A DNA stretch of 64,000 nt. Source: Mobula birostris (lineage: Eukaryota). The position numbers and the translations under genes are program-made. The stretch spans positions 40,339,248-40,403,247 of the forward strand of contig NC_092393.1 of NCBI RefSeq assembly GCF_030028105.1. Direction: 5' to 3'. Below the pieces are notes generated by a model. The model was not told the origin of the DNA, did no database searches, and saw only the letters and a list, made by a program, of their open reading frames with translations. This document shows positions 36,981 to 60,047 of this stretch, piece after piece; within the stretch, counting starts at the first letter, position 1; the number at the start of each line of letters is the position of its first letter.

Positions 36981-37048
36981 CTCTGCAGTTTTTCGTACTC
37001 TTTGGTATAAAGCATTTCCATGAAGTAAATCTGGTGGCCCACTGAAAA
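36981..37048 (-). CDS. TEPSIN: TEPSIN exon 5
   Basis: VFSGPPDLLHGNALYQRVRKTAE; cag/gtattt; 68 nt. Confidence 0.93.
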
Positions 37049-37258
37049 CTGGCAAAAGAGAACAACCCATTTACTAATTAGAAACTACAGGACTGTTAGA
37101 AGCATGACTTTGATTCCAAGAATGAGTACAGTCTTACAAATGACATGTCAGAGTTTTGTTTTTCAATAAAATTATCATTCAAATACACATTCCTTTTCTG
37201 TTTCAACTCATATCTGACTTTAAAAATTAGACGCAGCAACTAGTATGGTGTTCACTAA

Positions 37259-37745
37259 AGACTGACTTATACTTGTGCGTCAACTCGACACCGTAGAGCC
37301 CTACACAGAGCCTATGCGGATCCCTACGCCGTGGCCTGACGCACACCTCTCCCAAAATGTAACTGCGCATCGCAGCAACGCAGACTGCAACAACTGTGAT
37401 TGGTCTGCTTGGTAGCATCGCATTTCCTCCTATGCTGCAATAGCTTCCCATTGGCCAACTGAAGGGCAGGGAAGGAACTCTGGCTGCAATGCTTTCCATA
37501 AAGCTTTACAAACCTCCGAAATTATGGAGGACACATTTCGCTTTTACAAAAAAAAGACGCTCGCTTTAAACTTGTTTACCCCGAGAAAGACTACCATGAC
37601 CATGAAGCCTTGTGCGGGCAGGTGTGTGCGCATGAGTGACGTGCGCGAATTGCAGAGCGACGCAGACACACCAATTCACAAGCATAAATGCTCACAATGC
37701 ATGTGGGTTATGGCGTCGAATTGACGCACAAGTATAAATCAGCCT
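37259..37745. mobile_element. PIF/Harbinger-type MITE
   Basis: ~38-bp imperfect TIRs agactgacttatacttgtgcgtcaactcgac / gtcgaattgacgcacaagtataaatcagcct; TAA/TTA flanks; CpG-rich. Confidence 0.75.
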
Positions 37746-39004
37746 TTAGAGTAACTGTAGACACAATGAACAAGCCAGGTAAGAGAATTGAAATTGTGGT
37801 GCAAGACTTAATATAATAGCTGAAAAAGTATTTCATTGCCAAAATACTGAAATCTTTGTCAAACAAACTCAGCAGGCCATTCTGAGACTATGAAGGCTAA
37901 ATTCTGCAGCCCCTTTAAATGAGTTTGGGTTTAATTCACGGCTGTTGCTTCTAATGCAGGCTGTATGCCAACACTGGGCAGTCTGCTAACTACAATGACT
38001 GCAGTGCGCAGTTAGTATGAAGCACCCTGTTGAATTGTTGCATTCCGATGTGGGAGGAGGCGGGGGTAGAGAGATGATGTGCAAATCTGGCACCATTTAA
38101 AGCTAGTCTCCAGTACCAAAACCCAGCCTGTGCCTGTTAGAGAGGCTCCATTGTGGTTGCAGCAGATGACAGAATTCAGGGAAGATGTTCTTACTGAAAC
38201 TGCAGACATCTGACAAACTCTTCCTTCCGAGCATTGAGAGTAGTTATGGCATACTCCAGATAACTCTTCGCCTCTCTCCGGCTCCCCACTTTCCCTGCAC
38301 ATGCTCTGCTATCCCGCCATGAAATACTTAGTGCATTCACTCCTGGGAGCAGCTGCTTTGTGCATCAGGCTTGACGGGAGAAAGCATGAGTCATTCTCAG
38401 CATGACTCCTTAGACCTGAGCAACTTTAGAAAGTGATGTACACACGTAGCATAGGCAATAGAAATCAGTCAGCAATTCGAAAGCAGGTGATGATTCCCCT
38501 GAATAGTATTAGAGGTTATGGGGCAGTGAAGATCTTTTTGAACTGAATACACTTTCAGCCATGCATGAATAACACAGGGCTTTAGCTGGAGTGTTCAGCT
38601 CCACATTGCCAACCCTGGCATCAAATCAATGCTGTACACTGTGAAGGACATCACAATCCATCACGATATTTCCAGCAGGCATTAGCTGCAGATGCACATG
38701 TCCCACAGAACTGAAATATTCAGTTAGATCTATAAATCAACAGCCAATTTCTTGCAATTCCTCTTGCCCTCTGGAAATAGACTTTAACATCACTATTTTC
38801 CAATTACGTTCCCAGCCTTTTTGAGAACTATTCAAGATCATTGCCTCAGTTAATCCCTTGTGAGAAATTTGGTAAAAATCCTGCATAAAATGGAGTTAAT
38901 AGAAATAGGCCTCTAGTTATCAATATTCCATAGTACGAGCGGTTTGACAGGTAGTTAACTACTGTTAAATGTTATTTATCACTTTACCACAGAATAAAAC
39001 TGTA

Positions 39005-40694
39005 CAGGCAGTCCCCAGGTTACTGACATCCGACTTATGGACAACTTGTACTTACGAACAGACTGCCATAAAGCCTATTATATTAAAAATTTCAGTTAAA
39101 TACAATGGTTCGTAATAACGAACGCACGCACTACTTGGTGACGCTCATGAAAACATTGCGTGGCTTCAGCGGTTCGTCGGCTCGAGGAAGGAGAACGCCG
39201 TCCACCACGGATCACGTTGCCATTAACACTGTGTTGAGTGTGTAACTTTGTACTTGGCTTAAATTTTTCTCTTATTTACCCTTGTAACCATGCCTCAAAG
39301 CGTAAATCCAATGCACGTGCTGGTGATGCAAAGGAAAACAATCACGATTGAAAATAAAGTGGAAATAATAAAGCGATCGGAAAGAGGTGAAACATCATCG
39401 GACATGGGAAAAGCGTTAGGCTACTGTCGGTCAACAATTGGCACAATTTTAAAGGATAAAGTGATGATAGCATTTGAGGAAGAAGACTGGGATCTAAAAA
39501 CTCCAGAACTGAAAAAGTTTTTGATGAAAGAGTTAGCTGAAGCCTTTCCCCTCATTGAAGCAGGGATGGCAAAGTAAGAGGAGCAAGATCCTAATACAGA
39601 GAGGTTCACCAATGTTTACCGTTCAGTTACCAACGGCCTCAGCTGCTACAAGGCCATTTATGACGAGAAAAAGAAAAGCTCTGCATAGGAAGGTAAAATA
39701 CATATTATATACTAAGACAAACATTTGACTAACTGACGCTAACATTATAACATTATAGTCGTCACATTATAAACCTCAAGACTACCCAGTCTTGTGTCAT
39801 TCTCATCATTACTAGAATTTTAATCAACAGCACACAGATTAGTGCTGTTTTGAAACTGCAGCGTGACTTTTTATCTCTTTCTCTTCCCTGTGCAGTCCAT
39901 TTATTTTTGTCTGTCCAACATGCTCTTTGAAGGCGAGGAGATGGCGGCGCGATGCAGCTCGCAGCGGCCACTCCGGTGGTGATGTCTGTTATTTGTCAAG
40001 TAAGGTGCTGTGCACAATCCTGATTTGATGGAGACGGACGTGAGAGCATGGAGGAACATCTGGTGAAACTTCTGGAATGCCTGCTTCACTGCCGCTGTTA
40101 CTGTGTGGTCCAGAATCTCCGGAGGAGAAGGCCCCGAGTCCTTGGCTTTGCTTGTTGCTCGGCGGCCAGGGTGGAGTCAAAGCGCTTGGCAGAGGATGGT
40201 GCTCGAAGAGGCTGTGTCAGAGGGGCTGGTCGGAGGCTCGAAGTTTTCCGATAGACTCAGAGTCCGCTGCGGTCGGGTGCTTCCAATGGTGCTGCATCGG
40301 CGAGTTGGCAGTGCTTGGAGGTTCATGACAGGGAGAGTTTCTCCCTTCTGCCGCTTGCATGGGAGGATGAGTCTATCCGGACTTTGAGACTTTTTTTTTT
40401 ACCGTGCCCATAGTCTGTTCTTTATCAAATTATGGTATTGCTTTGCATTGTTGTAACTATATGTTATAATTATGTGGTTTTGTCAGTTTTAGTCTTGGTT
40501 TGTCCTGTGTTTTTTTGTGATATCATTCTGGAGGAATGTCGCATCATTTATTAATGCATGCATTTCTAAATAACAATAAACAAAAACTGAACTGAACTAA
40601 ATAAGAACCATATATACCTGTTCCGACTTACCTACAAATTCAACTTAAAGACAGATTTAGGAACGGATCTCGTTCGTAACCCGGGGACTGCCTG
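39005..40694 (+). mobile_element. Internally deleted Tigger-like transposon with nested insertion (39743-40600)
   Basis: TA-caggcagtccccaggttac ... gtaacccggggactgcctg-TA; HTH-psq remnant RKTITIENKVEIIKRSERGE...LGYCRSTIGTILKDK. Confidence 0.85.
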
Positions 40695-43600
40695 TACTAA
40701 AATCTCAATACCCATACCTGATCTCACTAAGTTTTAAACAATCCTGGCCAGCAGCTTATCCATTTAAAAAACCATCAAGAACTTCTACAACCTCAGCCAC
40801 ACAAACTAACAACTAATAAGTTCACACTATTCATTCTCAACATACATGAACCAAACTTTCTACACTTGCCAAGTTGTTACCGAACACAAATTATAAATTT
40901 CTTCTAAAATACGGACTAATAATGGTCAGACTAAATTAACTGGGATGCTCATTAAATGCTTCATTAATGCTCTTTTGTCTTAATTAAGCAACTGCATTTC
41001 TAAGTATTCGCTTTTACATTTAGCAAAACATTTTCTTGTCCACAAGTTGGAAAACTCTCTTCTCTTTAACTTCACACCTTTTTTTGAAAGGGTGTTATTG
41101 CTCTTCAAATCAATAAGCTGGAAATTTTTGACAGGGGTACAATACAGCATGATCAGCCTTTTAATTTTTTCTTAATATTGATACCTCTTGAAGCTGTGTG
41201 ATGGACACTATTATAACCCACATTTCCCCTCCTCACTCTATCACGGGGCATTAGACACTGGCCAGAAGCACCTAGATTTGCCATACCAAAACTCAACTCT
41301 TTGTTATCTACACTTTTATTCTTGTCACTGTTTGTAGCCGTTTCATTCTTTTCAATATTCCCACCCAATGTCTTTCTCTTCTAGCACTGAAAACCTGCTC
41401 ATAACCATCACACATGCAGATTTCTCAGATGTTTCTCTTGGATGCCAGTCATAAGATTAATATTCTTTCTTTGTTCATAGCTGAAATTCAAATTAATAAC
41501 TTGTCTGTGTCCACTTCGGTATAAATAAATGAGGGTGTAGCTTTTTTTTAACCTATAGAACATCATTGGACTATTCAATAAGTTTTGAGTTAAAGATCTC
41601 TTTGTGTTGCATACAAGAAGGTGCCTATCCCTTTCAAATTGACCTAGACAGCTCTTTCCTGTCCACCATTAATACTCTCAATCTATTCAATTATATTGAC
41701 CTGATATTTTACATAGGGGCAGGCAATAATGTATTATCTATCGATCTTATTACACTGCTTATACTAAACTCTATTCAACACATGAAGGTATTTCCTTACA
41801 AAGTGTTTATAGAATACATTAAACGCCATCAACTCATCAGTGCACTGTTCACAATATAACCCCCTGATAGAATACACAATCTTCATTTTTTTTAACAACA
41901 CTAAGCAATGTCATTAGCCTTAAGACTCCAGAATGCTATTCCTTGTTGACCTTTTACAACTTAATATAGACCTGTAAAATTAATATCTAAAACTTCAGAA
42001 TCTAAAATTTTTATATTGTTAATTAAAATATCAAAACTATCATTAGACTGGGATACTTTAAAAAAAAATTAAAATATCAAGATTAGTACCAAAGCATGTG
42101 ACCATCACATTTAAATCCTCACCACACTTAATACCCTCAATACACACTAAGATGGAGGTACCAGAGGGAGCAAAAGATATATAAATAACATGCATCATCC
42201 TCAAAAGTAAACTCAAGCACCAACTGGGTTGAAAAGAGCCTGTCCACATCAGATGCATTTACCTCATGAAGTTCCTGTCGAGACCTCAGCAGGGAAACTG
42301 TTTCTCCCCAGGACCAACCACATCTACATCCGGATGCCCCATTTGGTCAACCTCAGCATCATTATTTTTAACCTACATACCCCATTCAGTGGATGAAGCT
42401 GCTGCTTGTATGCGCTTGCCAACTTGCTGATCGTCTTTTTTGTTTATTTTGTACCATTTGAACATTACACCTAGCTGAGGCTAAGATTGCTCAATACTTT
42501 CTTTCCTCTATAATCTGTCTTCATCACAGCTTCAACAATAATACACAAACATTTGAAGCATCAGTCTGGGCATGTTTAAGCTGTCAATTTAGCAGTTGAC
42601 TTAGCCTCTCTTCCAAAAGAGCGGAGGGAGCAATTTAAAGAAACTTGTAAGACAGATACTAGCATATGACAATGAAACATGTATCATAAACCTGTGTTAT
42701 TATCTACATTTCTTTTTTTAAGTTAGCTGTATTTACTCTGCCGATATTTGAAGCATAGCATTGATTGCCTATTCTTCTGCCTGCATTTTAATAATGATAA
42801 GTCTAACTATTTTATAGGTGGCAGGCACAATCTCTTCTCAAAGTTTATTCTTAACAATCCAAATGTTTGTAACTTTTTAAAATTCCTTCCACAACCTCCT
42901 TTTGCGCTATGATTCTCTTATTGCCACTTTTCAAATGGTCACAACCAAATATGGTCCTACTGCTGCTGAAGCACTTAAGTAAAGACAATATAAATGTGTT
43001 CAAATCTGCTTTCTATCTGTATTTTTCCACAACACTTTGGGCTCCTTGTTTAATCAGGAAATAGAGTTCTTTTGTTTTGTAATGAACAATCAGCGCAAGT
43101 GTAATTATGACCTCGTTTTCAAGTCATTGCCATAAAATGAACATGGGTACAAAAATCTTTCAGGCTTATACAAACACATGAAAACGTCAATCATCTTTAG
43201 AACCTCTGTGGTCCTAAGAAAGCCCTGGAGGTAGCCCTGGGATATTCTCTCTCAGAAATAGGTTAAGTTGATTTGACTGCTGAAATGTGATTAGCGCAAT
43301 GTTTCATTTTTGGCAAAGTTACAGATGTTTTGAGTAGAAAGAGAAAAACATTTCTTAAGTCCATTTTCTTCCTCTAATAATTTCAATTAGCTTAATAATC
43401 AATAAAAGGCATTTTCTAATGTCTGAACAGGAAAGTCTGAATGTAGTTGGCTCATATTCACTGGATTTTAGTAAAGTGAGATGGGACCTCAATGAGGCTT
43501 ACAGGATTCTAAGAGAAATTAAAGGATAGATGCCATGAGGCCGTTTGTTCAGGATACAGGATCTAAAACGAAGGATCATAGTCGCGAGATCAGGAATTAG

Positions 43601-45012
43601 TCAATTCACAGAGCAATGAGAAGAAATCTTGTTACACAGGCTACTTCATGGTGTGAGGATGTTATTTAAATTATGTGATTTTAACTGAAGATTTGTCTTT
43701 CAATAATGAAGGAAGATTATTGCTGAAACAGCTGAAGGCTGATGGATTCAGTACACTATCCTGAAGAACTCCTACACTGAGATCCTGATTAACTTCTTAA
43801 ACGTCAGCCATCTCCCTTTGCCTGACATCCCCCTCCTGCTTAGTGGGGAGTTTATTCCTTAGTTCTCGTTACTAAATCTCCTTTCAGTCAAACTCAGTGG
43901 GTTGGGCAGAAGGAAGAAAAAAGCACGGGATGCAGGTTACGTTAAATTGGAAAATTCAGTGTTCGTGCCATCAATTTGTAGGTTATCCAGGTGGAATAGG
44001 AGACACTGAGTCAAATATTACTGGAATTCTTCAGCCCAGGCTTGGACCAAGGCTACAATGTGTCTAGAGCAGTGATAAAGTCCAAACTGAACATCTGTGA
44101 ACACGTGCCGACAAGGTAAATACAGTTTCATACACCTTCTATCAGTAACTGACAAAAGCAGCAATTAACCTGTTTTTTGCTGACTGATCATTCATGGACA
44201 ATTTTCCAGTTACATAGGTGTGAATATGATAACTGTACTGAAACAGCTTGGCTATGATTGCATTTAGTTTTCAGAAGAAGTCTTTGTACCATGCTGGGGT
44301 ACTCAGAATCAGAATCAAGTTTATTATCACCGTCATATATGACGTGAGATTTGTTGTTCTGCAGTAGCAGTACAGTGCAAGACACAAAATTAACATAAAT
44401 GTTTAAAAATTATGCAAAAATAATGAGGTAGTGTTCATAAGTTAATGGACTATTCAGACATTGCATAGGAGAAGAAGCTGTTACTGAACCATTAAGTTTT
44501 GGTCCTCAGGTTCTTGTATCTCCTTTCTGATGGTACTAACAAGAAGGGGTGAGTGCCCTTAAAGACGTCGTCAACGATTATAGCGGTGACGGAGCTGGTA
44601 AAGTCTACAATCCTCTGAAGCCTCTTGTGGTCCTGTGCATTGGAGCCTCCAAACCACACAGTGATGCAAACAGTCAAAATGTTCCCAATTGTAAAAACTT
44701 GCAAGAGTCTTTGGTAACATACCAAATCTCCTTAAGCTAAATGCATCACACTTCCAGGAATGGCAGGTGTGCAATAGTCCTAACCCCCCATCCATATATT
44801 ACTAATTTTGGACTGCACTCCTGAGGTTTTAGAGTTTATTTTATGTATATATTCTTTGTCATGCTGCAAAACGTTGAGCTGCTAAACTGTGTTTCATTAC
44901 TCCACAACAATGACAATAAAGATATTCTTCTTCTTCTTCCTCCTACAAAGTGGAGCTACTGACGTGTCTTTTGTTCGTGATTGCCATTCTATCCATACTC
45001 AATATAAGGAAC

Positions 45013-45098
45013 GCAAACACGAGGAAATCTGCAGATGCTGGAGATTCAAGTAACACACACAAAATGCTGGCGGAACACAGCAGCACTTTGTGTGTCTT
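45013..45098. mobile_element. 86-bp Penelope-derived insertion with 14-bp TSD
   Basis: tcaatataaggaac at 44999-45012 and 45099-45112 flanks gcaaacacgaggaaatctgcagatgctgg... Confidence 0.85.
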
Positions 45099-46036
45099 TC
45101 AATATAAGGAACCCGTGTTCTCATTTGAGTTCTATTTACAGGAGTGATGATCACTCCTACCAACACCATCAAGGGCAGATCCAATGGTTCCCTCTCCATG
45201 CATGGATCCAGTCTGATAACCGTGTACTTCTCCATTTGGCCAAATTAATCACTGGTTGTACTGTCAAGTCACCCCTGATGATGGACACTGAAGCCTGCCT
45301 CCCAGAGTGCATTCTGCTCCTGCTACCTTCAAGCTTCTTTCATCTATCGTTCAGTACAAAGATATGGTACACTTAACAACAGAGGGAGGTGGTAATCAAC
45401 AGAAGTTTTTCATACCCTGGCTTCATGGCGTCTGGAGTCCCAGGGCAACTCCTTCCCAATTGTACAAGTGGTGGTTCTGTCATGACTGTGAACTTAATCT
45501 ATAAAGGGACTGTGATGAAGGAGATTGGAATGTTGGCTGAAATACATAATTCCATGAGTTGGCTGTTATTTACTTAGTCTATGGGACAGCTCTGCAGTTT
45601 GGACAGTCCCCATCGTCTGTGAGGAATTTTTTTGCAAGTTTAACTGGGCTGGCAACAATAACATTACATCAGTGTTTATTAGTTCAATAAAGTAATAAGA
45701 AACATATTTTACTGATCATTTACAATCTTCCAATTGGGAAAATATTTAAATGCAGGTTCTTATTACCCATGATGAGGTGAGACACAATAATGGTGAAAAG
45801 TACTAAACACACAATCATCAGAAATTTAATTTAGAAATACGGAATAGAAATTTGTTGGGAACTGAAAACAAATGGAATTCGTTTACACTCTACGTTTTCA
45901 CTCTGCTTAAAGTTCCTTGAAAATCCTCTGGGCCGTATCTGCCATCATTTTATATGCAGAAGCTGAAGGTGTCAATTTGTTACATCAAGAGAAACAGCAT
46001 CTTTTAAAACTTGTATTCATTTTTTATATCTCTTAC

Positions 46037-46130
46037 CTATTACCTCCTGAATAAGAGTGGCGTTTCTCCGAAGCTCCAATGTAAACTGAGGGGAACCATG
46101 GCTGCAGACATACTGCAATATCTTGAGAAC
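46037..46130 (-). CDS. TEPSIN: TEPSIN exon 4
   Basis: VLKILQYVCSHGSPQFTLELRRNATLIQEVI; tag/gtaaga; 94 nt. Confidence 0.93.
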
Positions 46131-46224
46131 CTAACAATTAACACAAAGATTGAGAAGACAGTTTTGTTGCACAGTGGTGTAGTCATTCAGAATGTTTGTT
46201 GTGTGTAGTTTTTCATTGATTCTA

Positions 46225-48601
46225 ATGCAGGCTATTCTGGACTGGGTTTTGAGCAATGAGGAAGGGTTAATTAGCAATCTTGTCGTGAGAGGCCCCTTGG
46301 GTAAGAATGACCATAATACGGCGGAATTCTTCATTAAGATGGAGAGTGACATAGTTAATTCAGAAACAAAGGTTCTGAACTTAAAGAGAGGTAACTTTGA
46401 AGGTATGAGACATGAATTAGCTAAGATAGACTGGTAAATGACACTTAAAGGATTGATGGTGGATATGCAATGGCAAGCATTTAAAGGTTGCATGGATGAA
46501 CTACAACAATTGTTCATCCCAGTTTGGCAAAAGAATAAATCAAGGAAGGTAGTGCACCCGTGGCTGACAAGAGAAATTAGGGATAGTATCAATTCCAAGG
46601 AAGAAGCATACAAATTAGCCAGAGAAAGTGGCTCACCTGAGGACTGGGAGAAATTCAGAGTTCAGCAGAGGAGGACAAAGAGCTTAATTAGGAAGGGGAA
46701 AAAAGATTATGAGAGAAAACTGGCAGGGAACATAAAAACGGACTATAAAAGCTTTTATAGATATGTAAAAAGGAAAAGACTGGTAAAGACAAATGTAGGT
46801 CCCCTGCAGACAGAAACGGGTGAATTGATTATGGGGAGCAAGGACATGGCAGACCAATTGAATAATTACTTTGGTTCTGTCTTCACTAAGGAGGACATAA
46901 ATAATCTTCCAGAAATAGTAGGGGACAGAGGGTCCAGTGAGATGGAGGAACTGAGCGAAATACATGTTAGTAGGGAAGTGGTGTTAGGTAAATTGAAGGG
47001 ATTGAAGGCAGATAAATCCCCAGGGCCAGATGGTCTGCATCCTAGAGTGCTTAAGGAAGTAGCCCAAGAAATAGTGGATGCATTAGTGATAATTTTTCAA
47101 AACTCGTTAGATTCTGGACTAGTTCCTGAGGATTGGAGGGTGGCTAATGTAACTCCACTTTTTAAAAAAGGAGGGAGAGAGAAACCGGGGAATTATAGAC
47201 CGGTTAGCCTAACTTCGGTGGTGGGGAAACTGCTGGAGTCAGTTATCAAGGATGTGATAACAGCACATTTGGAAAGCGGTGAAATGATTGGACAAAGTCA
47301 GCATGGATTTGTGAAAGGAAAATCATGTCGGACGAATCTCATAGAATTTTTTGAGGATGTGACTAGTAGAGTGGATAGGGGAGAACCAGTGGATGTGGTA
47401 TATTTGGATTTTCAAAAGGCTTTTGACAAGGTCCCACACAGGAGATTAGTGTGCAAACTTAAAGCACACGGTATTGGGGGTAAGGTATTGGTGTGGGTGG
47501 AGAATTGGTTAGCAGACAGGAAGCAAAGAGTGGGAATAAACGGGACCTTTTCAGAATGGCAGGCGGTGACTAGTGGGGTACCGCAAGGCTCAGTGCTGGG
47601 ACCCCAGTTGTTTACAATATATATTAATGACTTGGATGAGGGAATTAAATGCAGCATCTCCAAGTTTGCGGATGACACGAAGCTGGGTGGCAGTGTTAGC
47701 TGTGAGGAGGATGCTAAGAGGATGCAGGGTGACTTGGATAGGTTGGGTGAGTGGGCAAGTTCATGGCAGATGCAATTTAATGTGGATAAATGTGAAGTTA
47801 TCCAGTTTGGTGGCAAAAATAGGAAAACAGATTATTATCTGAATGGTGGCCGATTAGGAAAAGGGGAGGTGCAACAAGACCTGGGTGTCATTATACACCA
47901 GTCATTGAAAGTGGGCATGCAGGTACAGCAGGCGGTGAAAAAGGCGAATGGTATGCTGGCATTTATAGCGAGAGGATTCGAGTACAGGAGCAGGGAGGTA
48001 CTACTGCAGTTGTACAAGGCCTTGGTGAGACCACACCTGGAGTATTGTGTGCAGTTTTGGTCCCCTAATCTGAGGAAAGACATCATTGCCATAGAGGGAG
48101 TACAAAGAAGGTTCACCAGATTGATTCCTGGGATGGCAGGACTTTCATATGAAGAAAGACTGGATGAACTGGGCTTGTACTCGTTGGAATTTAGAAGATT
48201 GAGGGGGGATCTGATTGAAACGTATAAGATCCTAAAGGGATTGGACAGGCTAGATGCAGGAAGATTATTCCCGATGTTGGGGAAGTCCAGAACGAGGGGC
48301 CACAGTTTGAGGATAGAGGGGAAGCCTTTTAGGACCGAGATTAGGAAAAACTTCTTCACACAGAGAGTGGTGAATCTGTGGAATTCTCTGCCACAGGAAA
48401 CAGTTGAGGCCAGTTCATTGGCTATATTTAAGAGGGAGTTAGATATGGCCCTTGTGGCTACGGGGGTCAGGGGGTATGGAGGGAAGGCTGGGGCGGGGTT
48501 CTGAGTTGGATGATCAGCCATGATCATAATGAATGGCGGTGCAGGCTCGAAGGGCCGAATGGCCTACTCCTGCACCTATTTTCTATGTTTCTATGTTTCT
48601 A
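46225..48601 (+). mobile_element. Young 5'-truncated CR1 LINE (ORF2 with intact RT, 688-aa open frame)
   Basis: KSPGPDG, NYRPVSLTS, SQHGF, LDFQKAFDKV, GVPQGSVLGP, KFADD; one in-frame TAA at 46435; tail tttctatgtttctatgtttcta. Confidence 0.95.
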
Positions 48602-48974
48602 CTGTGAAAGCCCGCAAGAAAATGAATCTTAGGGTAGTATATGGTAACAAATATGTACTTTGATAATAAATTTACTTTGAACTTCGGTCAATTTTTCTCT
48701 ATCCATGGTTTGATACTCTTTCTGATCTTCATACAACCAGATAAATAATGAGATTTCTCAGATACAGTAGGTTGTAGGTGTTGAATCCTTACACAAGATG
48801 ATTGGAAACAAAACCCTGACCATGTCAAAATATTGGGAATATAACTTCTGCAGTTCATTTATATATACGAGTTGTTCTTCTATTACATTGGCAAGGTAAC
48901 CAAATCAAGGAAATTGCAGAGACTTGATTGGAAATCACAGACCTGAATTAACTTTGCATTTGTTGCAGTCATAA

Positions 48975-49046
48975 ACATCCTGGGGTTCTACAGACCCCTT
49001 TGCTACTGGTAGGGGTCCATGGCATAAAAAAGGTTGGGAACCCCTG
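48975..49046. mobile_element. Short hAT/Charlie-type MITE remnant
   Basis: ggggtccatggcataaaaaaggttgggaacccctg terminus; internal gacccct/aggggtc hairpin. Confidence 0.5.
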
Positions 49047-50931
49047 GCTTATTCCCTTTTTAGCCCAAAATTTAATCTCATATCTTTATAGGCAATGCTT
49101 TAATAAAAAGGCACCAACTTTTATGTCCCTTTTGTAAATTTCAAACTAAATTATAACTATTACAAGTAACTTATTGAAATTTTAGACTGCACTTAAGACA
49201 TCCTTCTATGCTATCCAGGAGAGAAAAGAAAGTGTTACAACAGCTATATAAATTAAATGCTGGTTGGATTAAAACTATTTACCCATTGTATGGAATATCC
49301 TGAGGTAGACAATTTTAGATTAATTGGCCCAAGAACAATGTCAAGCATAGAACATTAACTCCCAATGTTCAAGGTTAATTAGGAATCACCAGCTCAAACA
49401 ACTGCACAAATAAAAACAAATGAAATTCCCAATTTATCAAGTTTTGGGAAGGTCAACACCAACCTTCTCATCATTCCTGACCATCACAGCATCCTCTTGG
49501 ATACATGGCAATATAAAAGCCAATGAAATTAACATTTCAAACTAAATTTATAAACCATAGTATGTCAACCACTCTACAGACTTTATCTAATTCTCTTAGA
49601 TCCTTTATTGATCATGCTTTTATGTGTCCTAGTGCCCCTATCCAATTACTGTAGCTAACTGCTGGAAAGCTGTTCAGCTCTGTGGTTTTTTGAGCTGGTG
49701 AATCTCAGCAACATCTGGCTGGTGGTCAAAGAAACAAAGAAAACAACTAAATGTTTAATCACATTTTTTCTGGTAAACGATCATTGCAAACAATGGCATG
49801 TAATTTCCCTTTGGACTTGGAGGCAATTCGATGCAGCAGAACCGAGGCGAGGCAGCAGGCCCATCGCTGAGAGCAAGGAAGATCCAAGGTTCAATTGATT
49901 TAAGCGTGGGTGGGCCAAATGGGAAAGGTCAGGTACAGGGTGAATCGAAGCGGTGAGGTCCAGGCCTCAGAGCGTATTGAAGCGACAGAACCCAATTTTT
50001 GGACAATGATTTAAGTGCTGGGACAGACTGAAAAGGTCAGGGTGTCAGGGCCGGAGGTGAGGGATAGGCCAATTGAGCTCACTGCTCTGCAAGGTTGGCC
50101 CTGACCTGAAATAAGGCTCTGTAGATGGACTCTCTTTGTGGACTTCAGAACGTTATTTGCTTGCATTTATTGTTTGCATGATTTGCTTTTTTTTCCCCTC
50201 TGCACATTGGGTGTTTGACGTTTTTTTTTTAATGGGTTCTTTTGGGTTTCTTTGTTTTGTGGCTGCCTGTAAGGAAACGAATCTCAGGGTTGTATAATGT
50301 AGACAGTACATACTTTGATAACAAATGTACTTTCAACTTTTAAATGATCTCAAGCATGAGTGCAGTGGTCTGACTCTGTTTCTAACTATTCTATAAAATG
50401 AAAGGTGGCAATTGAGGGAACATGAAGGATGGCATTTTAAGACTGATGTACTCACGAGGCTCTACCCCAATGAACTAGGTTGTTGTGTCTGTGCACAACT
50501 ACATATGTACTAAATAAAAGCACACACATGGGAGATGGTTTTAACTGGTGTATTCACATTGCAGCGCGAGAGAGAGAACAATGTGCATTTGTAAACAGCA
50601 CATACGCAGACAACAGATCCATACATAGTGCTGGGGGGGGGAATTGATCATTGCTCAAAAAGAAATAGATCCATATATTACATAGGTGATCTCTTGCAGG
50701 ACAAACTGACGCTGTGTTGTAACCATCATACATGTCACCATCCACATACTCCAGCCATTGGACTTAACATCACATTTTGTTGGCGTATTGTTGCAGTACA
50801 CTTCCGCAAAACAGGAAAGCGTTTACAAAACAATGAAGACAAACAAGATTTTCAGAGAACTGAGGGCTTCAAAACTATGCTTGATTTGTAGTGGCAAAGA
50901 ATACATGAAGCCAAAAGAAAAGACCACCAAC

Positions 50932-51023
50932 CTTCAGTTTGACATTACAGGAGTTGCTTTGCAGTCGCTCCAGCAAGTACTCAAGCAGGCACAGGCAAGC
51001 TCCCACAGACTCGTGAGAAATCT
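50932..51023 (-). CDS. TEPSIN: TEPSIN exon 3
   Basis: KISHESVGACLCLLEYLLERLQSNSCNVKLK; cag/gttggt; 92 nt. Confidence 0.93.
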
Positions 51024-51332
51024 CTGTAGTTCCATTCAGTTATGGGAAAAAAGCAAAAAAAACCTTGCACCATCCACATAAGGACATTTATTTCTCTCAC
51101 ACAATCAAAAACAATCTGCTAGATAAAAGAATAAATAGCACCAATGTCTCATACTTTTAATGCACAATATACATTTCAGAGTATCCTACACTGAAAAAGC
51201 AACAGAAACACCAAACCAGGTAAATAATGAAACTTGTGTAAAATGAGATATGAGAAGTAGAAATAATGGATTAAAGGGTTTAGGAAGCGAGTTCCAAGGA
51301 GTTAGACAAAGGCAAACAAAAGTTCTCCAACC

Positions 51333-51600
51333 CCGGGTGGCACAATAGCGTAGTGGTGAGCACAATGCTTTACAGTACCAGTGACTCTGATTCATTTACT
51401 GCCACTTGTTGTAAGGAGTTTGTACATTCTCCCCGTACTGTGTGGGTTTCCTCTGGTTGCTCCGGTTTCCTCCCACAGTCCAAATACATGCTGGTTGGTA
51501 GATTAATTGTCCCGTGATTAGTCTAGGTTAAATCAGGGGTTGCTGGACAGTGCGGCTCAAAGGGCTGTAAGGGCCTGTTCTGCGCTGTATCTCAAAAAAT
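51333..51600 (+). mobile_element. V-SINE (HE1-like)
   Basis: gggtggcacaatagcgtagtggtgagc head, V domain gtgggtttcctctggttgctccggtttcctcccacagtcc, CR1-like 3' aagggcctgttctgcgctgtatctc. Confidence 0.8.
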
Positions 51601-54600
51601 AAATAATGGAGTAAGAAAGGATGCACATAAGCATTAAAAATAACATCTTGGAGGAGGGCTGTAATGAACTGATGAAAAACAAAATAAAGATATTAAAATT
51701 TAATGAAGAGATTATGAGCTTCAATGTAACTAAAACAGGCAATGCTTTTAATTGTTATTCTGGGTATCATTGGCAGAAAGTCTGAAATGAGGGAGTGGCA
51801 AAAGAACAAAGTTGGTTGCTGAAGTAAGTGATGGTTGCAATGGAGATGATATAGCCGGTGCACCGCAGCTCATGGCTGACATAATTAATGTCAATGGCTT
51901 CACATAGCCCAAGGCTAAGAAATAAAATGAAATTAACTTCAACAGCACAGGCTTTGAGTTAAGGTCAGAAAATACCATCTTCGCAATGCATCAATGCACA
52001 TGATCAGAAGAGGCTGCAGAGGATCGGAGGCTCATACAGCTCCATAGTGGCACAAAGCTCCCCACAATCAAGGACATCATCACAAGGCAGTGCCTCAAGA
52101 AGGTAATAGCTATCATTCAGGACCCTCACTATCTGGAACATGCTTTCTTATCACTACCATCAGGGAGGAGGGATTGGAGCCTGCAGACAAACACTCAACA
52201 CTTTAGGAACAGCTTTTCCCCTCTGCCGTTAGTTTTCTGAATGTTCCATGAATTCATGAACACTGCCTTACTATTCCTCCTTTGTACTACATATTTATTT
52301 TATTCTTTATTGTAGTTTGGAGCAATTTTTTATGGCTTGCACTATACTGTTGCCACGCCACAACACAACAAATTTCATGACCTACAGTGTGTCAGTGATA
52401 ATAAACGATTCTGATTCAACAGGAACCTGCAACTCATTGAAGATCTGATGTGCAACAAGCAGTCTGCCAATACAGAGACAATTTGGGATTTATGCAGGCA
52501 TAAGACAAAAGATGAATCTATTAAAATAAAAATAAAAATGGATGCAAGGCTACAGACTTCGTCAGTAAGGATTAACAGAAAAAAAGACGACAGAAAAATG
52601 GGTATGTGAGACTGGAACACTGAAGGACCAGACATGAAGCTGAATAATGGAAGGGGCGGGTAAAAAAGAAATTATAATCAACTTATTAAACTTTCAATTG
52701 ATTTGTTATAATGTACAAACTTACAGGCTGGTTTGCTGTTTTACAGCCTGCATGAACATGATGGATTGAAAGTTTCTGCCTGTTTCTACATTCATAGAGA
52801 ACAATAAATACAGAAACAATGGTGTCACTGCCGTTTGTTTAGGCTGGCCAGATGCAATGATAGAAGGATCAGAATGTATAATTTGGGGGGATCTAGAAAA
52901 GGAGCTGGGGAGGGAAGGCATATTGAGGATTTCAGAGGAAATTCATTAAGAAGAATCAGTTTCATTCCTTTAGATTCTCCATTATGCAGGAACTTAACTA
53001 CCTTTTGTAATGAAGTGAAACCAGAAAATGTTTATTACAATCATCATCAGTTTCATTTTTCCAGATAAACGCTGGGCAGTTGAAATTATTGTTCAAATAA
53101 ATAAACAAATCTCTGTTCCTCCAAATAAGTTTAAATTTTTTGCTGCCTTTAGACTTCTTTGTAGCTTTTTATACATGTCCATGTGGTCTTTAAATACTTT
53201 TTCCACTGTTCTCCAACCTTAAAAAGCACATTCACTTTGCTATCTTACAAGCTATTCAGCCACAGAATCTTCTGCAATTTCTTTTCTTACATATGCATGA
53301 CTGCTCCTGGACAACATCATCCAAAACCAAGGCCCATTTCTATCTGCATACTGACACCATTTAGTTCTGTCACGCCTCCACTGTCATTGTCAGATATTTA
53401 AAATTAATTGAGCAGGACATGCCCCCAATTAAATAATGAGATAATCAAATCCACTGCTCCATTCCACAAACATTAACTCTATATTTCTCCCTGGTAGTTA
53501 CCTGAGAATGGCTGGAACTTCAATATCATATCTGCCCCGAGATTAACTATAAACTGACGAGTTAACATTTCTACCATTATTCTGATCTCTTTTTATCTTC
53601 TCAACTTTTCCTTCACATTAGCATTAGGGCATCTGCAGCCATATACCGCAATCATGTCTTTGGTAGCCCTAGACTTGACTATTCCAACACACTCCTGACC
53701 TGCCTCCCTTAGTCTAGAAACTCAGATCATTTAAAATATATACTGCCCATCTCCTAACTTGCACCTTACCTTATTTCCCATCATATTGGTCCTCAGTGAC
53801 TTATGATGCCTCTCAGATTAAATACTTTGATTTTAAAACTCCTATTTTTCCCTCCCTTCAAAAATATTCTCCCATACATTAAATCATACATGAAATCTCT
53901 GTAATCTTTTCCAGTCTCTCAAACCTCCATAAAGAAATACAGAACTTCTTCAATTTTCTTTCCAAGCATTTGATTTTAATTGTTCCACCATCTAGAGGTC
54001 ATTTCTTCATCTATCAAGGCCCTAAACCTGGCCATTTCTCTAGCTTCCATTACAATTACTCCTTCAAACCTATCTCATTGTCTAAGCAGTTTGTTTTGCA
54101 GTAATATTGTATATTGAAAACACTCCTTTTAAGTGCCTTAGAACACAAAAGGCACATTATAATCACATTTTGTTGTTGTACAGGAGATATATATGGTGTC
54201 TACATCAATAAGCAATGACTCTCTCAGGAAGTCAACAGAGAATCATTTTGCAAGACCTTGAAATAATTAGACCAAAATAGAAGTATATTTTCCATTGGAA
54301 TTACATTTGGTGGCTCTTTATGATCATGGCCACGCTCAACGTATTGGATTTTCAGAACAATACAACTTTTAAAAGTGGGAATATATAGTCATTTTGTTTA
54401 CTAGAAGAATTGGAATCAGGTTTAATATCACTGGCATATGTCGTGAAATTTAACTTTGTGGCAGCAGTACATGACAATAGAAAGAAAAAACTGTGCATAG
54501 TTAAATATGTAGTGCAAAAATATAGGAAAGAAAAAAGTAATGAGGTACTAGAAGAGTTTATCTTTAGAAAAGTTCAGTATAAATCCAGGATGATGAAATT

Positions 54601-55324
54601 ATACAGATGGTGTTACACAAAATTCTAATAATTTACACGAAGATCATGACAATGAGTCAGAGCTGTTAAGTTGTTTAGCACAGAAACGGGTCCTTCAGCC
54701 CAACTTGCCGATGCTAACTATGATGCCTAACTACTTAATCTCAACTGTCCACATTAGGCCATTCACCTCCATTTGCTTCCTAGCCAGTGACCTGTCCAAA
54801 TGTCTTTTAAACATTGTATCTATCTCTACCACCTCCTCTGGCAGCTTGTTCCATATAATATACACTATCAGCCCATGTCATCCTTCTCAGGGAATACGAA
54901 CTTGCACTCCAAGCTCCTTCTGTACATCAACACTTCTGAGGTCGCTGTCATTTACTGAATATGCCCTGTTGAGTTGTGATTTGCTAAGGTCAGGCAACAG
55001 TGCAGTGCCAAGTCTCAAAAGCAGTTTTTGTTTCTTAAGTTTTGCGATTTAAGCTTTCTTATCAAGTATTTGCTATTTATGTAACGGTCCTCATAAAATA
55101 CAAAATTTGGTGACCACTTTCCAAACATTTCCACTCTGTTAACAAACATGATAATACCCTTCCTGTCTCCTGCGACTACAGTTCATTCTCACTATTAAAT
55201 ACTGTATTTTTCTGTCTTTGGTTTATTTTCCAAAACCTCATGAAAACAGTCCACTTAAGTTAAATAGTGCCCTTTAGAACATTAATGTATAATAAAAGAA
55301 GCTAATTACTACATAAACTTCAAA

Positions 55325-55465
55325 AAAGAGAAAATCTGCAGATGCTGGAAATCCAAGTAACACACACAAAATGTAGGAGGAACTCAGCAGACCAGGCAGT
55401 ATCTATGGAAAAGAGTACAGTCGACGTTTCAGGACCAGGCCCTTCATCAGGACTGGAAAAAAGAT
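55325..55465 (-). mobile_element. Penelope-like element end carrying a hammerhead motif
   Basis: Same family as 32800-32897 and 29565-29668; remainder of opposite arm at 56025-56055. Confidence 0.75.
55418..55455 (-). ncRNA. Minimal type I hammerhead ribozyme motif, sense to TEPSIN intron 2
   Basis: Minus strand cagtc-CTGATGA-agggcctggtcct-GAAA-C-GTC-gactg: 5-bp helix I, intact core, stem II hairpin. Confidence 0.7.
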
Positions 55466-55471
55466 GAGGAC

Positions 55472-56024
55472 TCTGGACTTCCCCAACATTGGGAACAATC
55501 TTCCTGAATCTAGCCTGTCCAATCCCTTTAGAATTTTATACGTTTCAATCAGATCCCCCCCTCAATCTTCTAAATTCCAGAGAGTATAAGCCTAGTCAAT
55601 CCAGTCTTTCATCATATGAAAATCCTGCCATCCCAGGAATCAATCTAGTGAACCTTCTTTGTACTCCCTCTATGGCAAGAATGTCTTTTCTCAGATTAGA
55701 GGACCAAAACTGCACACAGTACTCCAGCTGTGGTCTCACCAAGGCCTTGTACAACTGCAGTAGTACCTCCCTGCTCCTGTACTTGTCACACAGACAGTGG
55801 TGAATCTGTGGAATTCTCTGCCACAGGAAACAGTTGAGGTCAGTTCATTGGCTATATTTAAGAGGGAGTTAGATATGGCCCTTGTGGTTAAAGGGATTGG
55901 GGGTATGGAGAGAAGGCAGGTACAGGGTTCTGAGTTGGATGATCAGCCATGATCATACTGAATGGTGGTGCAGGCTCGAAGGGCCGAAAGGCCTACTCCT
56001 GCACCTATTTTCTATGTTTCTATG
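55472..56024 (+). mobile_element. CR1 copy with 5' inversion (55472-55785 inverted, 55786-56024 forward)
   Basis: Inverted part matches 47979-48291 and forward part matches 48356 to the end of the CR1 at 46-48.6 kb. Confidence 0.9.
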
Positions 56025-56469
56025 ACTCCAGCTTTTTGTGTGTGCGTGTGTTACCACATAAACCTAATTAGTTTTACAATTAATAAACATGTTCAGATCC
56101 AATTGCAAATGATTTTGGTTTATAATGTAAAATACCAGTACTTATACAATTACTGTATAATTAATTTGAGGATTCACTCATGTACATTGTTGCTTTACTT
56201 ACTTATACATATATTATCATGCAAAATGACTGTCTCCCAAATTGTATTTCATAGACCTATACTTTAACGATTATTCATTCTTTGTAACATATTTTTACAT
56301 AGTTCCTTCCTAATTATAAGCTGCAGACTTTAATAATCATAAAGATAACTCCAAATTTGTATTTCATAAATGCAATGTAAAACTTACATCAGTCAGTTTA
56401 AGTGTTCTGTTTCTCATAATTAACAATATTAGGATTAACATATCTTATATGAATCAAGTACAAGGATAC

Positions 56470-56542
56470 TGACGATCTCTTCAAACAGATACCCAGGACA
56501 TGGTATTTCATCATCCGACGTGGCTTTCATTAGCATAGGAAG
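56470..56542 (-). CDS. TEPSIN: TEPSIN exon 2 (start of ENTH domain)
   Basis: LPMLMKATSDDEIPCPGYLFEEIV; cag/gtatcc; 73 nt. Confidence 0.94.
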
Positions 56543-57899
56543 CTGGAAAGGAACAGTGATATTAAAGAGGTGAATGGACCTTAAATACAGCAGCCAGCTT
56601 TTGCACAGAGACAAAGTTGCAGACAATGTCTGTTGTTTAGATGTGACATGTAGTTACTCTGCAAGACACAAACCCTAATGATCTACAAATGATTAAAGCT
56701 TTTATTCATTCTGCAAAGAGTACAACCTGCCCATTGTAGTTTGCTCTTATTATCACAACGAAAAGTGTAATTTGAATTTGTCACAGCAAGAAAGCAATGG
56801 GAAAGGTTTTGGAGGTGCCAAGAAGACAAAGAAGCTGAGCAATAGGAAGAATTCAGAAATTCAAGCAATTGGACAAACAAGAAAATCTGAACTTCTTAAA
56901 TCCCAAATTTGCTGTTTGGTGAAAAGTGCTGGACTTTAGACGGAAAAACACAATCTACGATGATCGGGGGCCTCACATTTTAATTAGTCACCAATGAGGA
57001 GTTTCAACATAGAATAAATAAAATAGAATATGTACATAGAATTCTGTGCTCAATAACATAGAATAAATTTACCTATTAAAAGATTATGATGACTTTGTCC
57101 ACAGACTGAATTAATATAATTTCAAATTTGTGTTTGTGTGTATGATTCCGTCTCAAATTTTAATAGAAAATTACCAAAGTACTTAGTCAGAAAGAAATTT
57201 TAAATAAAGCAATATGATAGTACTTTCTAAATTTCTTATTGTGTAAATGGACAAGGTTAGATAAGCCATTCAAATCATTTAGAAGTTACAATGTTTTATT
57301 GCTTCAAAGTTCAGACAAGAAAGGTTTTAACTAAAAGGTTTTATGGGAACCATAAAATTGACAGTAGTGTCGTTCTTTAAGAATAGTTATGTTATCTTCC
57401 TGCTTTTGCAGTGATATAAAAGTGGGAAAAAAACTCCAGATCTAGACATAATATATTTAAGCACTTGGACTGGTGGTTTATCAGCTGTATTCTTAAATAC
57501 AGTAAATGATGAAAACCAGCCTTGGGTTGGTGTGTCAGAAATCAGTGGTTCAAACTTGTATCTGTGCACAAAGTGTATTATTTCAGAATAGTGCTGAGAA
57601 AAACTTCTTGCCAAAGAATGAACTTTTAAATGAGAATGAATTGCAGGGTCTCTGTTTTCTCAGATGATTGTATAATGATCCAATAACACTAAATGAAGAA
57701 AATCAATGGAGTTTAATGAACACACTGGCCAATAATCTGTCAAATATCAAATAGGTTATCAGGACATTTATTGTATTGCTTTTGGGAAACTTTCTTGTAT
57801 TCAAGTCAACAGCCATATTTTTAAAATTTATTTTTGGGATGTATGTCTCCTCCTAATTGCAAAGGGGGAATTAAGGTCTATAATGGCTCTGGAGTCAAT

Positions 57900-58405
57900 T
57901 GCTGGCCAATTTGCTAGGTACATCTGTACACCTGCTCGTTAATGCAAATATCTAATTAGCCAATCATGTGTCAGCCACACAATGACTAAATGTATACAGA
58001 CACGGTCAAGAGGTTCAGTTGTTGTTTAGACCAAACATCAGAATGGGGGAATAAAAGTGACCTTGACTGGAGAATGAATGCTGGTGCCAGATGGGTTGAT
58101 TTGAGTATCTCAGAAATTGCTGATCTCCAGGGATTTTCAAGCACAACTGTTTCTAGAGTTTATAGAGAATGGTGCGAAAAAAAGAAAAAAAAAAACATAT
58201 AGTGAGTGGTAGTTCTGTGGGCGATTGAATGGTTGGATTAGTTCAAGCTGGGAGGACAATAACAATAGCTCAGCAAAGCATATGTTACAACAGTAGTGTG
58301 CAGAAGATCATCCCTGAATGCACAATCTTGGAAGTCCATGGGCTACAGCAGCATAAGGCCGCATCAGGTTCCACTCCTGTACCTAATAAACTGGCCACTT
58401 AGTGG
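57900..58405 (+). mobile_element. Tc1-like non-autonomous element (third copy)
   Basis: SISEIADLQGFSSTTVSRVYREWCEK; right terminal repeat gtacctaataaactggccacttagtg in inverted orientation. Confidence 0.8.
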
Positions 58406-59215
58406 ATGCCCTTCATCAGAGAAGAACAGCAAATTCCCTTCTCCAACGAATATTAGTCAGCCACACAGGGTCTTACAACAACCAAGTAGTTTCGTTATTG
58501 TTGCTAGTGGGACTAGCCTTTATATGAATCTTAGAATTATTGAAATACTTAAATTTAAATTCCCCAGCTGCCACTGTTGCTTTCATAATCACACCTCTAG
58601 AACAATGACCTAGAACTCTGGTCACACAAAACTATGTAACTAACAAACTGATGGAGGACCTCAGCGGGCTGAGCAGCGTCTTCGGGAGGATAGGAAATGT
58701 TTACTTTTTCGATCGAAAACTTTTTAAAAGTTCGCAAATCTTGAAGAGTCGTCGCAGTGGTGACACAAGAGACCTCAAATGCTGTAATGTGGAGCAGATT
58801 TCTTTTCCTCCTACGGATGCTGCCTGGTTCACTTGGATGGTTTCGAGCTTCAGATTCCAGCACCTGTAGTCTGTTGTGTCTCCTCCGTTGGGTGTTAAGG
58901 GTGGTTTATTCAAGGATAATGAATACATTGACCTGGGATCTTGCTACTGGCTACAGTACCTGAATGATTGTGTGGCTACCGATGGAAACCAGGGCACTCG
59001 CCCCGGTCTCCGAGAGGCTGCACCTTCGCTCTTCCGTCTCTGAGAAGCAGCCAGGAGCCAGTTGTTTATAGCCCTGTGTGAATTGTGGCCGCGCCCGGAC
59101 CCCACGCTACTCCAGACCCCCTCCAACTTCCATTATAATCGCGGCAGCATGATTTATAATGGAGTCCACCCTCACTCCCTCACTCCACAACACGCCGCCA
59201 CCCGACATCACTCAC

Positions 59216-59254
59216 TCTCTGCAGAAATCCCAGCTTCTCCCCGACCGATGCCAT
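59216..59254 (-). CDS. TEPSIN: TEPSIN coding exon 1
   Basis: MASVGEKLGFLQR|gtgagt in CpG island; resembles human ...DRLSFLHR; phase 0 matches exon 2; the 13 exons join to an open 1923-nt CDS. Confidence 0.88.
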
Positions 59255-59552: not shown

Positions 59553-60047
59553 GTGAGTAAATATATTTACAATTTTGTGACATCCAGCTGTTGCACCAAT
59601 GTTGTTCGCTCCTCTTTTCCAGAATAACTTGTATTTAGTATAAAGAAGCACCACAGATGTAAATACTGAGGCTGCAGCTGTTATTAAGGGGCAATATATG
59701 GTGAAAATGAAGAGGAATATTACTTTTTTTGGTTGAAACACAAGTGACAAGCAGATGCCAGAATCTGAAGCAATAAAAATCTGTTGGAAATACTCAGCAG
59801 GTCTAACAGCATCTGTGAGAGGGAAAGGAGTCTTCCAAGTTTTGGATCGAAACACTGCTTCAGGACTCTTTCTAATTATTTTCCAGGATCTGGTGGTCGC
59901 TAGGAAGTCCATTATTTATTGCCTTTCTCCAATTGCCCTTCAGTATATAGTGGTGAGCTGCCACTTTGAACTTTTGCACTCCTGGTGAAGATTCTCCCAC
60001 AGTGCTGTAGGAGGGAGTTCTAGGATATAGACATAGTAGGAATGGTG

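What the first reader, a model, noticed from the sequence alone, without database searches (positions are those of the whole stretch)
55418..55455. Intact minimal hammerhead ribozyme motif on the TEPSIN pre-mRNA strand
Seen: the minus strand reads cagtc-CUGAUGA-agggccugguccu-GAAA-C-GUC-gacug, with a perfect 5-bp helix I, all core residues, a stem II hairpin, and helix III reduced to the palindrome ACGU. Known: Penelope-like elements carry such minimal hammerheads, thought to cleave as dimers via the palindromic helix III. Inference: this copy is transcribed within TEPSIN intron 2. Because related ends are abundant (5.0, 20.8, 29.6, 32.8, 45.0, 58.7, 59.8 kb), intronic copies could pair in cis or trans and cleave host pre-mRNA, forming a dispersed self-cleaving RNA system.
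Basis: partly seen in the sequence, partly recalled or inferred. Interest (0 to 1): 0.7.

Follow-up and report, generated by a model that had tools for sequence, protein, structure and literature searches.

The report
Penelope retrotransposon hammerhead relic in TEPSIN
This is the leftover tail end of a very abundant Penelope-type jumping gene in an intron of a ray's TEPSIN gene; it still spells the known miniature hammerhead RNA motif of such elements, but it has no intact partner in the gene and copies like it decay as ordinary junk DNA, so it likely does not cut the host RNA.

Summary
The motif is real (55418-55455, minus strand) and lies sense in TEPSIN intron 2, confirmed by spliced joints. 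It is the 3' pseudo-LTR end of a Penelope-like element (RT plus GIY-YIG upstream in longer copies), the known home of minimal dimer-type hammerheads (PMC4209133). One tight pattern has 53,032 hits in this genome. 'Intact' is overstated: helix II has four private changes and lacks G10.1-C11.1. The dispersed host-cleaving system is not supported. No other intact sense copy lies in TEPSIN; the 32.8 kb one is antisense. In 1.55 Mb of four other genes, intact motifs are 13 sense to 14 antisense, and core letters decay about as fast as flanks, equally on both strands. Published metazoan minimal hammerheads did not cleave as monomers and cleaved weakly as dimers. Two hints keep a small door open: the host intron looks U12-type, and the mutated helix II still folds as well as the consensus (about 5% by chance). 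The scan reached the same reading on other DNA, including this genome. Cleavage and conservation in other rays were not tested.

The parts
55418..55455 (-). Minimal type I hammerhead motif (helix I 5 bp, core, altered helix II, palindromic ACGU helix III); predicted cut between 55423 and 55422
55319..55470 (-). 3' end (pseudo-LTR fragment, about 150 nt) of a Penelope-like element of the older subfamily; 14 of 131 columns differ from the family majority line; no ORF left
55472..56024 (+). 5'-truncated CR1-like LINE with a 5' inversion (55472-55783 inverted, 55786-56024 direct), 93% like the LINE at 47981-48595; abuts the 5' end of the Penelope fragment
   Evidence: the name CR1 is recalled
56026..56044 (+). 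Possible short inverted piece of the Penelope tail on the far side of the LINE (weak match, 19 nt)
   Evidence: (E 0.008 on 60 nt), family D18
51024..56469 (-). TEPSIN intron 2, 5,446 nt, GT-AG, donor GTATCCTTG and a branch-like TTCCCATAAC 15 nt before the AG: likely U12-type
22779..59254 (-). TEPSIN coding region, 13 exons
32734..32904 (+). Younger-subfamily copy with an intact motif (C3 at 32802), antisense to TEPSIN, preceded by a perfect 39-bp inverted arm
29558..29692 (+). Related copy, antisense to TEPSIN, core broken (G12 to A)
45012..45083 (-). Related tail, sense, lacks the hammerhead part
58641..58687 (-). Degenerate tail in intron 1, sense, no hammerhead core
59739..59873 (-). Degenerate copy upstream of the start codon, core broken
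20746..20945 (.). Head-to-head inverted pair of copies downstream of the last coding exon, cores broken
5033..5146 (-). Degenerate copy outside the TEPSIN coding span, core broken

Best explanation
The motif is the minimal hammerhead carried in the 3' terminal repeat of a highly amplified Penelope-like retrotransposon, left as a solo, mutated fragment in TEPSIN intron 2, where it is likely an inert passenger. Shown: family identity, copy number, sense position, correct splicing of the intron, four private changes in helix II, no strand bias and near-neutral decay of the core among intronic copies. Inferred: in the active element two pseudo-LTR copies on one transcript would swap helix I strands and pair ACGU with ACGU to build helix III and cut after GUC, probably with help from the element's protein. 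Inferred: the lone intronic copy would lack such a partner, so it would leave with the spliced intron and be degraded uncut.
For: 53,032 exact hits to one tight pattern and 12,888 with G10.1-C11.1, controls 0. Longer copies carry RT motifs, a C-x4-C-x2-C linker and GIY-YIG (PF01541 above cut-off in 2 of 2 EN pieces scanned), also in this copy's own subfamily (L036, L065). In 155 loci (1.55 Mb) of four genes: 405 family hits (197 sense, 208 antisense), 269 span the motif, 27 intact (13 sense, 14 antisense, p=1.0, CI 0.29-0.68); stable under other helix I cut-offs. Core changes: non-CpG 190/2236 (8.5%) against flank 883/8816 (10.0%); CpG core letters 389/993 (39%); sense against antisense core 310/1680 and 314/1798, p=0.45. 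This helix II variant occurs at 2 places in the genome, and the other lacks core and family flank. Exon 2-3 joint in 3 of 4 runs. Predicted active dimer -18.9 kcal/mol against -21.4 for two monomers and -34.3 for an inactive dimer. A Schistosoma minimal hammerhead had no monomer activity and low dimer activity (PMC4209133); the Anolis element's hammerhead cut only with its protein, and no reads ended at the cut (PMC11167929).
Against: Only 8 of 159 copies of this older subfamily keep the whole core, and this is such a copy. Its mutated helix II folds about as well as the consensus (-3.5 against -3.7 kcal/mol), seen in 233 of 5000 simulations and 1 of 43 real copies with 4 or more changes; the copy was, however, picked for looking intact from about a million. 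The non-CpG core is slightly less changed than the flank (p=0.03, uncorrected; base-matched rates are close and go both ways). The strand test (n=27) excludes only strong bias. No cleavage assay or RNA-end data were available.
Confidence: 0.88

Rival explanations
1. Passenger with leaky activity: the copy is occasionally cut in trans, by pairing with one of the thousands of intact sense copies or with help from the element's protein, without effect on TEPSIN output.
For: Helix I arms and ACGU are shared by at least 53,032 copies, and family RNA is abundant in RNA-like contigs. The Anolis motif is protein-assisted (PMC11167929). Slow hammerheads in introns did not block splicing (as cited in PMC2995048), so leakiness need not leave a strand bias.
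Against: About 90% of motif-spanning copies are broken (242 of 269) and half are antisense, which would compete. The active dimer is not favoured in the nearest-neighbour model. G10.1-C11.1 is missing.
Confidence: 0.08
2. Domesticated copy: selection has kept this hammerhead to cut TEPSIN pre-mRNA in a slowly spliced U12-type intron and so tune TEPSIN output, as the CPEB3 intronic ribozyme does.
For: Whole core and helix I unchanged in an old-subfamily copy (8 of 159 keep the core); helix II rebuilt in a shifted register (about 5% by chance); U12-like splice signals and one contig that keeps the start of intron 2 after intron 1 is spliced; human ENTHD2 is a U12 gene (PMC6800510).
Against: Chosen after the fact from about a million copies; no helix III of its own and no cis partner; four changes hit helix II, including the conserved closing pair; the intron is spliced out in 3 of 4 runs.
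Confidence: 0.03
3. One reading: dispersed intronic copies dimerise across the transcriptome and cleave host pre-mRNAs widely.
For: Very high number of intact cores; retrozymes are reported as depleted from Xenopus introns (bioRxiv 10.64898/2026.07.22.740005).
Against: No sense depletion or excess of intact motifs (13:14), none for G-C-closed ones (5:6), and equal core decay on both strands.
Confidence: 0.01

Closest known systems
Minimal hammerheads (min-HHR) in pLTRs of metazoan Penelope-like elements, including fish Xena, Poseidon and Neptune (Cervera and De la Pena 2014, PMC4209133; parts 1-2 of 4 read)
   Same: Type I, 4-5 bp helix I, no loop III, palindromic 15.2-16.2, extra base between A9 and 10.1 and G10.1-C11.1 in the family majority; mostly solo copies from truncated elements, thousands per genome.
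   Different: Copy number here is higher (53,032 by one pattern, against about 4,000 in coelacanth and 9,000 in Xenopus in that paper, by another method). Family helix II is 4 bp. This copy has lost G10.1-C11.1.
EN+ Penelope-like elements with a CX2-5CxxC linker (Neptune and Nematis clades; Craig et al. 2021, PMC8557442; passages read)
   Same: RT followed by a cysteine linker and C-terminal GIY-YIG, hammerhead near the 3' end, inverted 5'-truncated arms (L106, L107).
   Different: No tree was built, so Neptune against Nematis is not resolved by test; no full-length intact ORF was looked for.
Poseidon PAc element of Anolis (PMC11167929; passages read)
   Same: Vertebrate pLTR hammerhead upstream of a short 3' tail.
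   Different: PAc was assayed (cuts only with its protein; cutting not needed for insertion in vitro); this one is an unassayed fragment.
Domesticated intronic ribozymes: RECK, CTCL and DTNB hammerheads (review PMC6155905, passages) and the CPEB3 HDV-like ribozyme (PMC10919898, abstract)
   Same: Self-cleaving motif on the pre-mRNA strand of an intron.
   Different: Those are single-copy and conserved across species; this one is one of a repeat family, has no helix III of its own, and no conservation has been shown.
Non-LTR retrozymes (bioRxiv 10.64898/2026.07.22.740005; parts 1-2 of 5 read)
   Same: Type I hammerheads related to pLTRs, reported also in one cartilaginous fish.
   Different: Retrozymes are tandem arrays; this copy is solo, and only 1 of 155 loci held two intact same-strand motifs, 3.5 kb apart.

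Membership tests
Minimal type I hammerhead of PLEs | Core C3-U4-G5-A6-N7-G8-A9, G12-A13-A14, A15.1-U16.1, H17 | tested here: met
Minimal type I hammerhead of PLEs | Short helix I (4-5 bp) closing the motif | tested here: met
   5 Watson-Crick pairs; predicted to form in isolation (0.98) but not with flanks (0.0 in 7 of 7 windows), as also for 27 of 30 control copies
Minimal type I hammerhead of PLEs | Loopless palindromic helix III | tested here: met
   ACGU at 55427-55424
Minimal type I hammerhead of PLEs | G10.1-C11.1 pair with an unpaired base after A9 | tested here: not met
   Met by the family majority and by 12,888 copies; this copy has G-U or, shifted, A-U with no extra base
Minimal type I hammerhead of PLEs | Self-cleavage as a dimer | not testable with these tools
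   Only contigs were available
EN+ Penelope-like element | PLE-type RT upstream of the repeat | tested here: met
   Motifs DKG, KIHK, GRPI, DxxSLY, GxxMG in L107 and L108 (motif list recalled); Pfam gave no hit for 3 of 3 RT pieces; absent from this truncated copy
EN+ Penelope-like element | C-terminal GIY-YIG endonuclease | tested here: met
   PF01541 at 25.4 and 24.6 bits, cut-off 22.6; same motif upstream of old-subfamily ends L036, L065
EN+ Penelope-like element | pLTR with tandem or inverted arrangement | tested here: inconclusive
   Inverted arms in 2 of 4 extended loci; no full tandem pLTR-ORF-pLTR unit was fetched
Neptune clade | CX2-5CxxC linker between RT and EN | tested here: met
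   CKRNKCCTC in L106; shared with Nematis per PMC8557442
Neptune clade | Placement in an RT tree | not tested
   No reference PLE set was fetched
Domesticated intronic ribozyme | Conservation at the orthologous site across species | not testable with these tools
   No other cartilaginous fish genome is held
Non-LTR retrozyme | Tandem units each with a hammerhead | tested here: not met
   Solo copy
U12-type intron (host intron) | RTATCCTT donor and TTCCTTRAC-like branch site close to the acceptor | tested here: inconclusive
   Donor GTATCCTTG fits; branch-like TTCCCATAAC ends 15 nt before the acceptor, a little beyond the 10-13 nt window in PMC6800510; consensus recalled, no scoring matrix run

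The most novel reading that the evidence does not exclude
A retrotransposon hammerhead has been domesticated in a minor (U12) intron: it rebuilt helix II in a new register and, switched on in trans by RNA or protein of active Penelope elements, cuts TEPSIN pre-mRNA during the slow minor-splicing window, coupling host gene output to transposon activity.
Probability: 0.03. Interest if true: 0.7.

Novelty: new member of a known kind. Interest (0 to 1): 0.12.

Why it matters
As found, it matters little: it is one of tens of thousands of copies of a described motif. The useful by-product is a direct strand and decay test which suggests that a genome can carry an intact minimal hammerhead about every 60-75 kb, inside genes, at no visible cost; this fits the view that the motif needs a tandem partner or the element's protein. 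If the novel case held, it would be a trans-activated natural ribozyme gating minor splicing.

Tried and rejected
Rfam scan: no hammerhead family at E<=10; the miRNA hits at 32.7 kb are the inverted arm of a family copy. First genome pattern had one base too many and found only 5 variants; redone. Pfam on single TEPSIN exons and on RT pieces: no hits; identity came. No listed run is on record as RNA and all are contigs, so cut ends, strand and level could not be read; the first laying was swamped by repeat contigs. No contig covered most unique parts of intron 2, which says nothing on cleavage. C6:205.82-206.03 Mb (21 loci) was dropped from the strand test because no exon confirmed a gene there; it held 16:14 hits and 0:0 intact. 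Column A6 was kept out of the non-CpG core set because 31 copies share a C there; its rate (45/249) is. Context folding does not discriminate: helix I fails to form also in 27 of 30 intact control copies. The idea that helix II is a subfamily variant was rejected. Luense et al. (PMC5785218) is not held; it is known here only through the review PMC6765202. Searches for a description of this family in sharks or rays: 'hammerhead ribozyme'+'Penelope'+'shark' gave 1 paper, where the word describes the shark's head; 'TEPSIN'+'minor intron' gave 0. Supplements of PMC4209133 and of the bioRxiv preprint were not read and may list cartilaginous fish motifs.

Full report
1. Observation. The minus strand reads CAGUC-CUGAUGA-AGGGCCUGGUCCU-GAAA-C-GUC-GACUG at 55455-55418. 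Helix I has five Watson-Crick pairs, all core letters are present, helix III is the loopless palindrome ACGU, and the predicted cut lies between 55423 and 55422. The loose core pattern alone is at chance level (2 hits, 2.23 expected). The full descriptor (core, helix I of 4 or more, helix II of 3 or more, paired 15.2-16.2) hits twice in the window and 0 times in 100 Markov-1 windows. Rfam reports no hammerhead at E<=10.

2. Host gene. The large exon at 22776-23522 is 97% identical to Mobula Tepsin and 94% to Hemitrygon Tepsin, so the animal is likely a stingray or devil-ray relative. Thirteen coding exons map from 59254 to 22779 on the minus strand. Contigs join 59216 to 56542 in 4 of 4 runs and 56470 to 51023 in 3 of 4 (one study; RNA status is the tool's guess, but the joints are GT-AG introns). 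The motif is therefore sense in intron 2 (5,446 nt), about 1.05 kb after the donor. The donor reads GTATCCTTG and a branch-like TTCCCATAAC ends 15 nt before the acceptor, which resembles the U12 consensus (recalled). Human ENTHD2 (alias of TEPSIN, recalled) is listed among U12 genes in PMC6800510 (passage; which intron was not checked). One contig in run X4 keeps 70 nt of intron 2 after intron 1 is removed.

3. What the element is. A tight pattern has 53,032 exact hits in the 4.0-Gb genome, control 0; 12,888 carry G10.1-C11.1; a flank pattern of this copy's subfamily has 11,701. In fetched loci the motif sits about 100 nt from the element's 3' end. Longer copies run upstream into GIY-YIG (PF01541 above cut-off in 2 of 2 pieces), a C-x4-C-x2-C linker and RT motifs; Pfam did not hit the 3 RT pieces. 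Old-subfamily loci L036 and L065 show the same endonuclease upstream. Inverted arms flank 2 of 4 extended loci. This is an EN+ Penelope-like element with the linker that PMC8557442 assigns to Neptune and Nematis (passages). The TEPSIN copy is a fragment of about 150 nt (55319-55470) whose 5' end abuts a 5'-inverted LINE (55472-56024).

4. How intact is it. Against the majority line of 252 copies it differs at 14 of 131 columns, four of them in helix II. The majority helix II is A-GGGU-CUCG-GCCC, with the unpaired base and G10.1-C11.1 that PMC4209133 names as consistent features (parts 1-2 read). This copy closes with G-U (3 bp) or, shifted by one, with A-U (5 bp, 3-nt loop). The exact variant occurs at 2 places in the genome, and the second lacks core and family flank, so the changes are private. 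Against my reading: the shifted hairpin is nearly as stable as the consensus (-3.5 and -3.7 kcal/mol), which happened in 233 of 5000 simulations and 1 of 43 real copies with four or more changes, and only 8 of 159 old-subfamily copies keep the whole core, against 30 of 44 young ones. The copy was chosen for looking intact, so these odds are weak evidence.

5. Partners in cis. Of nine family hits in the window, two pass the descriptor: this one and 32802 on the plus strand, which is antisense to TEPSIN. The 29.6 kb copy is antisense and broken; 45.0 and 58.7 kb are sense without the motif; 59.8, 20.8 and 5.1 kb lie outside the coding span with broken cores. Predicted energies: active dimer -18.9 kcal/mol, two monomers -21.4, best inactive dimer -34.3, duplexes with the antisense copies -123 and -130. 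These omit tertiary contacts and protein.

6. Test of the system-level idea. I took 155 ten-kb stretches from four genes oriented by their own exons: three CUB-sushi genes on C1 (+), C3 (-) and C35 (-), and one glutamate-receptor intron on C8 (-). Twenty-one further stretches on C6 were dropped as unverified. Family hits: 405 (197 sense, 208 antisense), one per 3.8 kb, which would be about a million genome-wide if typical (inference). Spanning the motif: 269. Intact: 27 (13 sense, 14 antisense; p=1.0; CI 0.29-0.68); with G10.1-C11.1, 5 and 6; other cut-offs gave 14:15 and 12:14. Per site, non-CpG core letters changed in 190/2236 (8.5%) and flank letters in 883/8816 (10.0%; p=0.03 uncorrected, base-matched rates A 6.0/8.1, C 11.0/11.7, G 11.7/12.9, U 9.1/7.4); CpG core letters in 389/993 (39%); sense and antisense cores alike (p=0.45). 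The motif was kept while the element was active and decays after insertion, whichever strand it is on. The sample excludes strong, not mild, bias.

7. Mechanism. Inferred from the anatomy and PMC4209133: two pLTR motifs on one element transcript swap helix I strands and pair ACGU with ACGU, forming helix III and cutting after GUC. A Schistosoma minimal motif showed no monomer activity and low dimer activity. The Anolis PAc motif cut only with the element's protein, cutting was dispensable for insertion in vitro, and no reads ended at the cut (PMC11167929, passages). A slow hammerhead in an intron did not block splicing whereas a fast ribozyme did (as cited in PMC2995048, passages). The solo TEPSIN copy would thus most likely be excised with the intron uncut (0.88); leaky harmless cutting 0.08; domestication 0.03; transcriptome-wide system 0.01.

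8. Novelty. A new member of a known kind. My searches found no paper on this family in rays, though a 2026 preprint reports retrozymes in one cartilaginous fish (parts 1-2 read) and unread supplements may list such motifs. Earlier notes of this scan reached the same reading on other DNA; they are not independent support. Interest 0.12.

Noticed in passing
window 51024-56469: TEPSIN intron 2 looks U12-type (donor GTATCCTTG, branch-like TTCCCATAAC); one contig keeps its first 70 nt; human ENTHD2 is a U12 gene.
   Followed up: partly
L066-L245 (family copies in four genes): 5' ends of copies pile up at the start of helix I (-6 to -3 of C3: 9 of 70 young; -5 to -3: 47 of 229 old) and almost never at the predicted cut (+28: 1 of 70 young, 0 of 229 old). 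The old-subfamily model is weak upstream, so part may be an alignment edge. Could mark a transcription start or a template switch at GUC.
   Followed up: partly
L006-L035 and listing: The commonest young variant has U at 11.1 (25 of 44 young copies) while keeping other CpGs, so a lineage with G10.1-U11.1 likely amplified as such.
   Followed up: partly
alignment column 34 (A6): 31 of 249 copies share C in place of core A6 (CUGCUGA), suggesting an older lineage that spread with a changed core base.
   Followed up: no
window 32734-32811: Perfect 39-bp hairpin made by a copy and its inverted arm, in a TEPSIN intron; gives spurious miRNA matches in Rfam.
   Followed up: partly
window 46438-48595: CR1-like LINE with a 688-aa open RT frame (PF00078), antisense inside TEPSIN, just upstream of exon 4.
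   Followed up: no
window 10133-12319: L1-like RT frames of 407 and 251 aa (PF00078; family name recalled).
   Followed up: no
window 61520-62101: Weak aspartyl-protease match (below Pfam cut-off), likely a decayed LTR retrotransposon remnant.
   Followed up: no
L034 around position 1500: Short head-to-tail repeats of the hammerhead segment (about 40-nt period) upstream of an intact motif, retrozyme-like.
   Followed up: no
window 61063-61134: Upstream pLTR and endonuclease-end fragment of the same element on the plus strand, without the motif.
   Followed up: no
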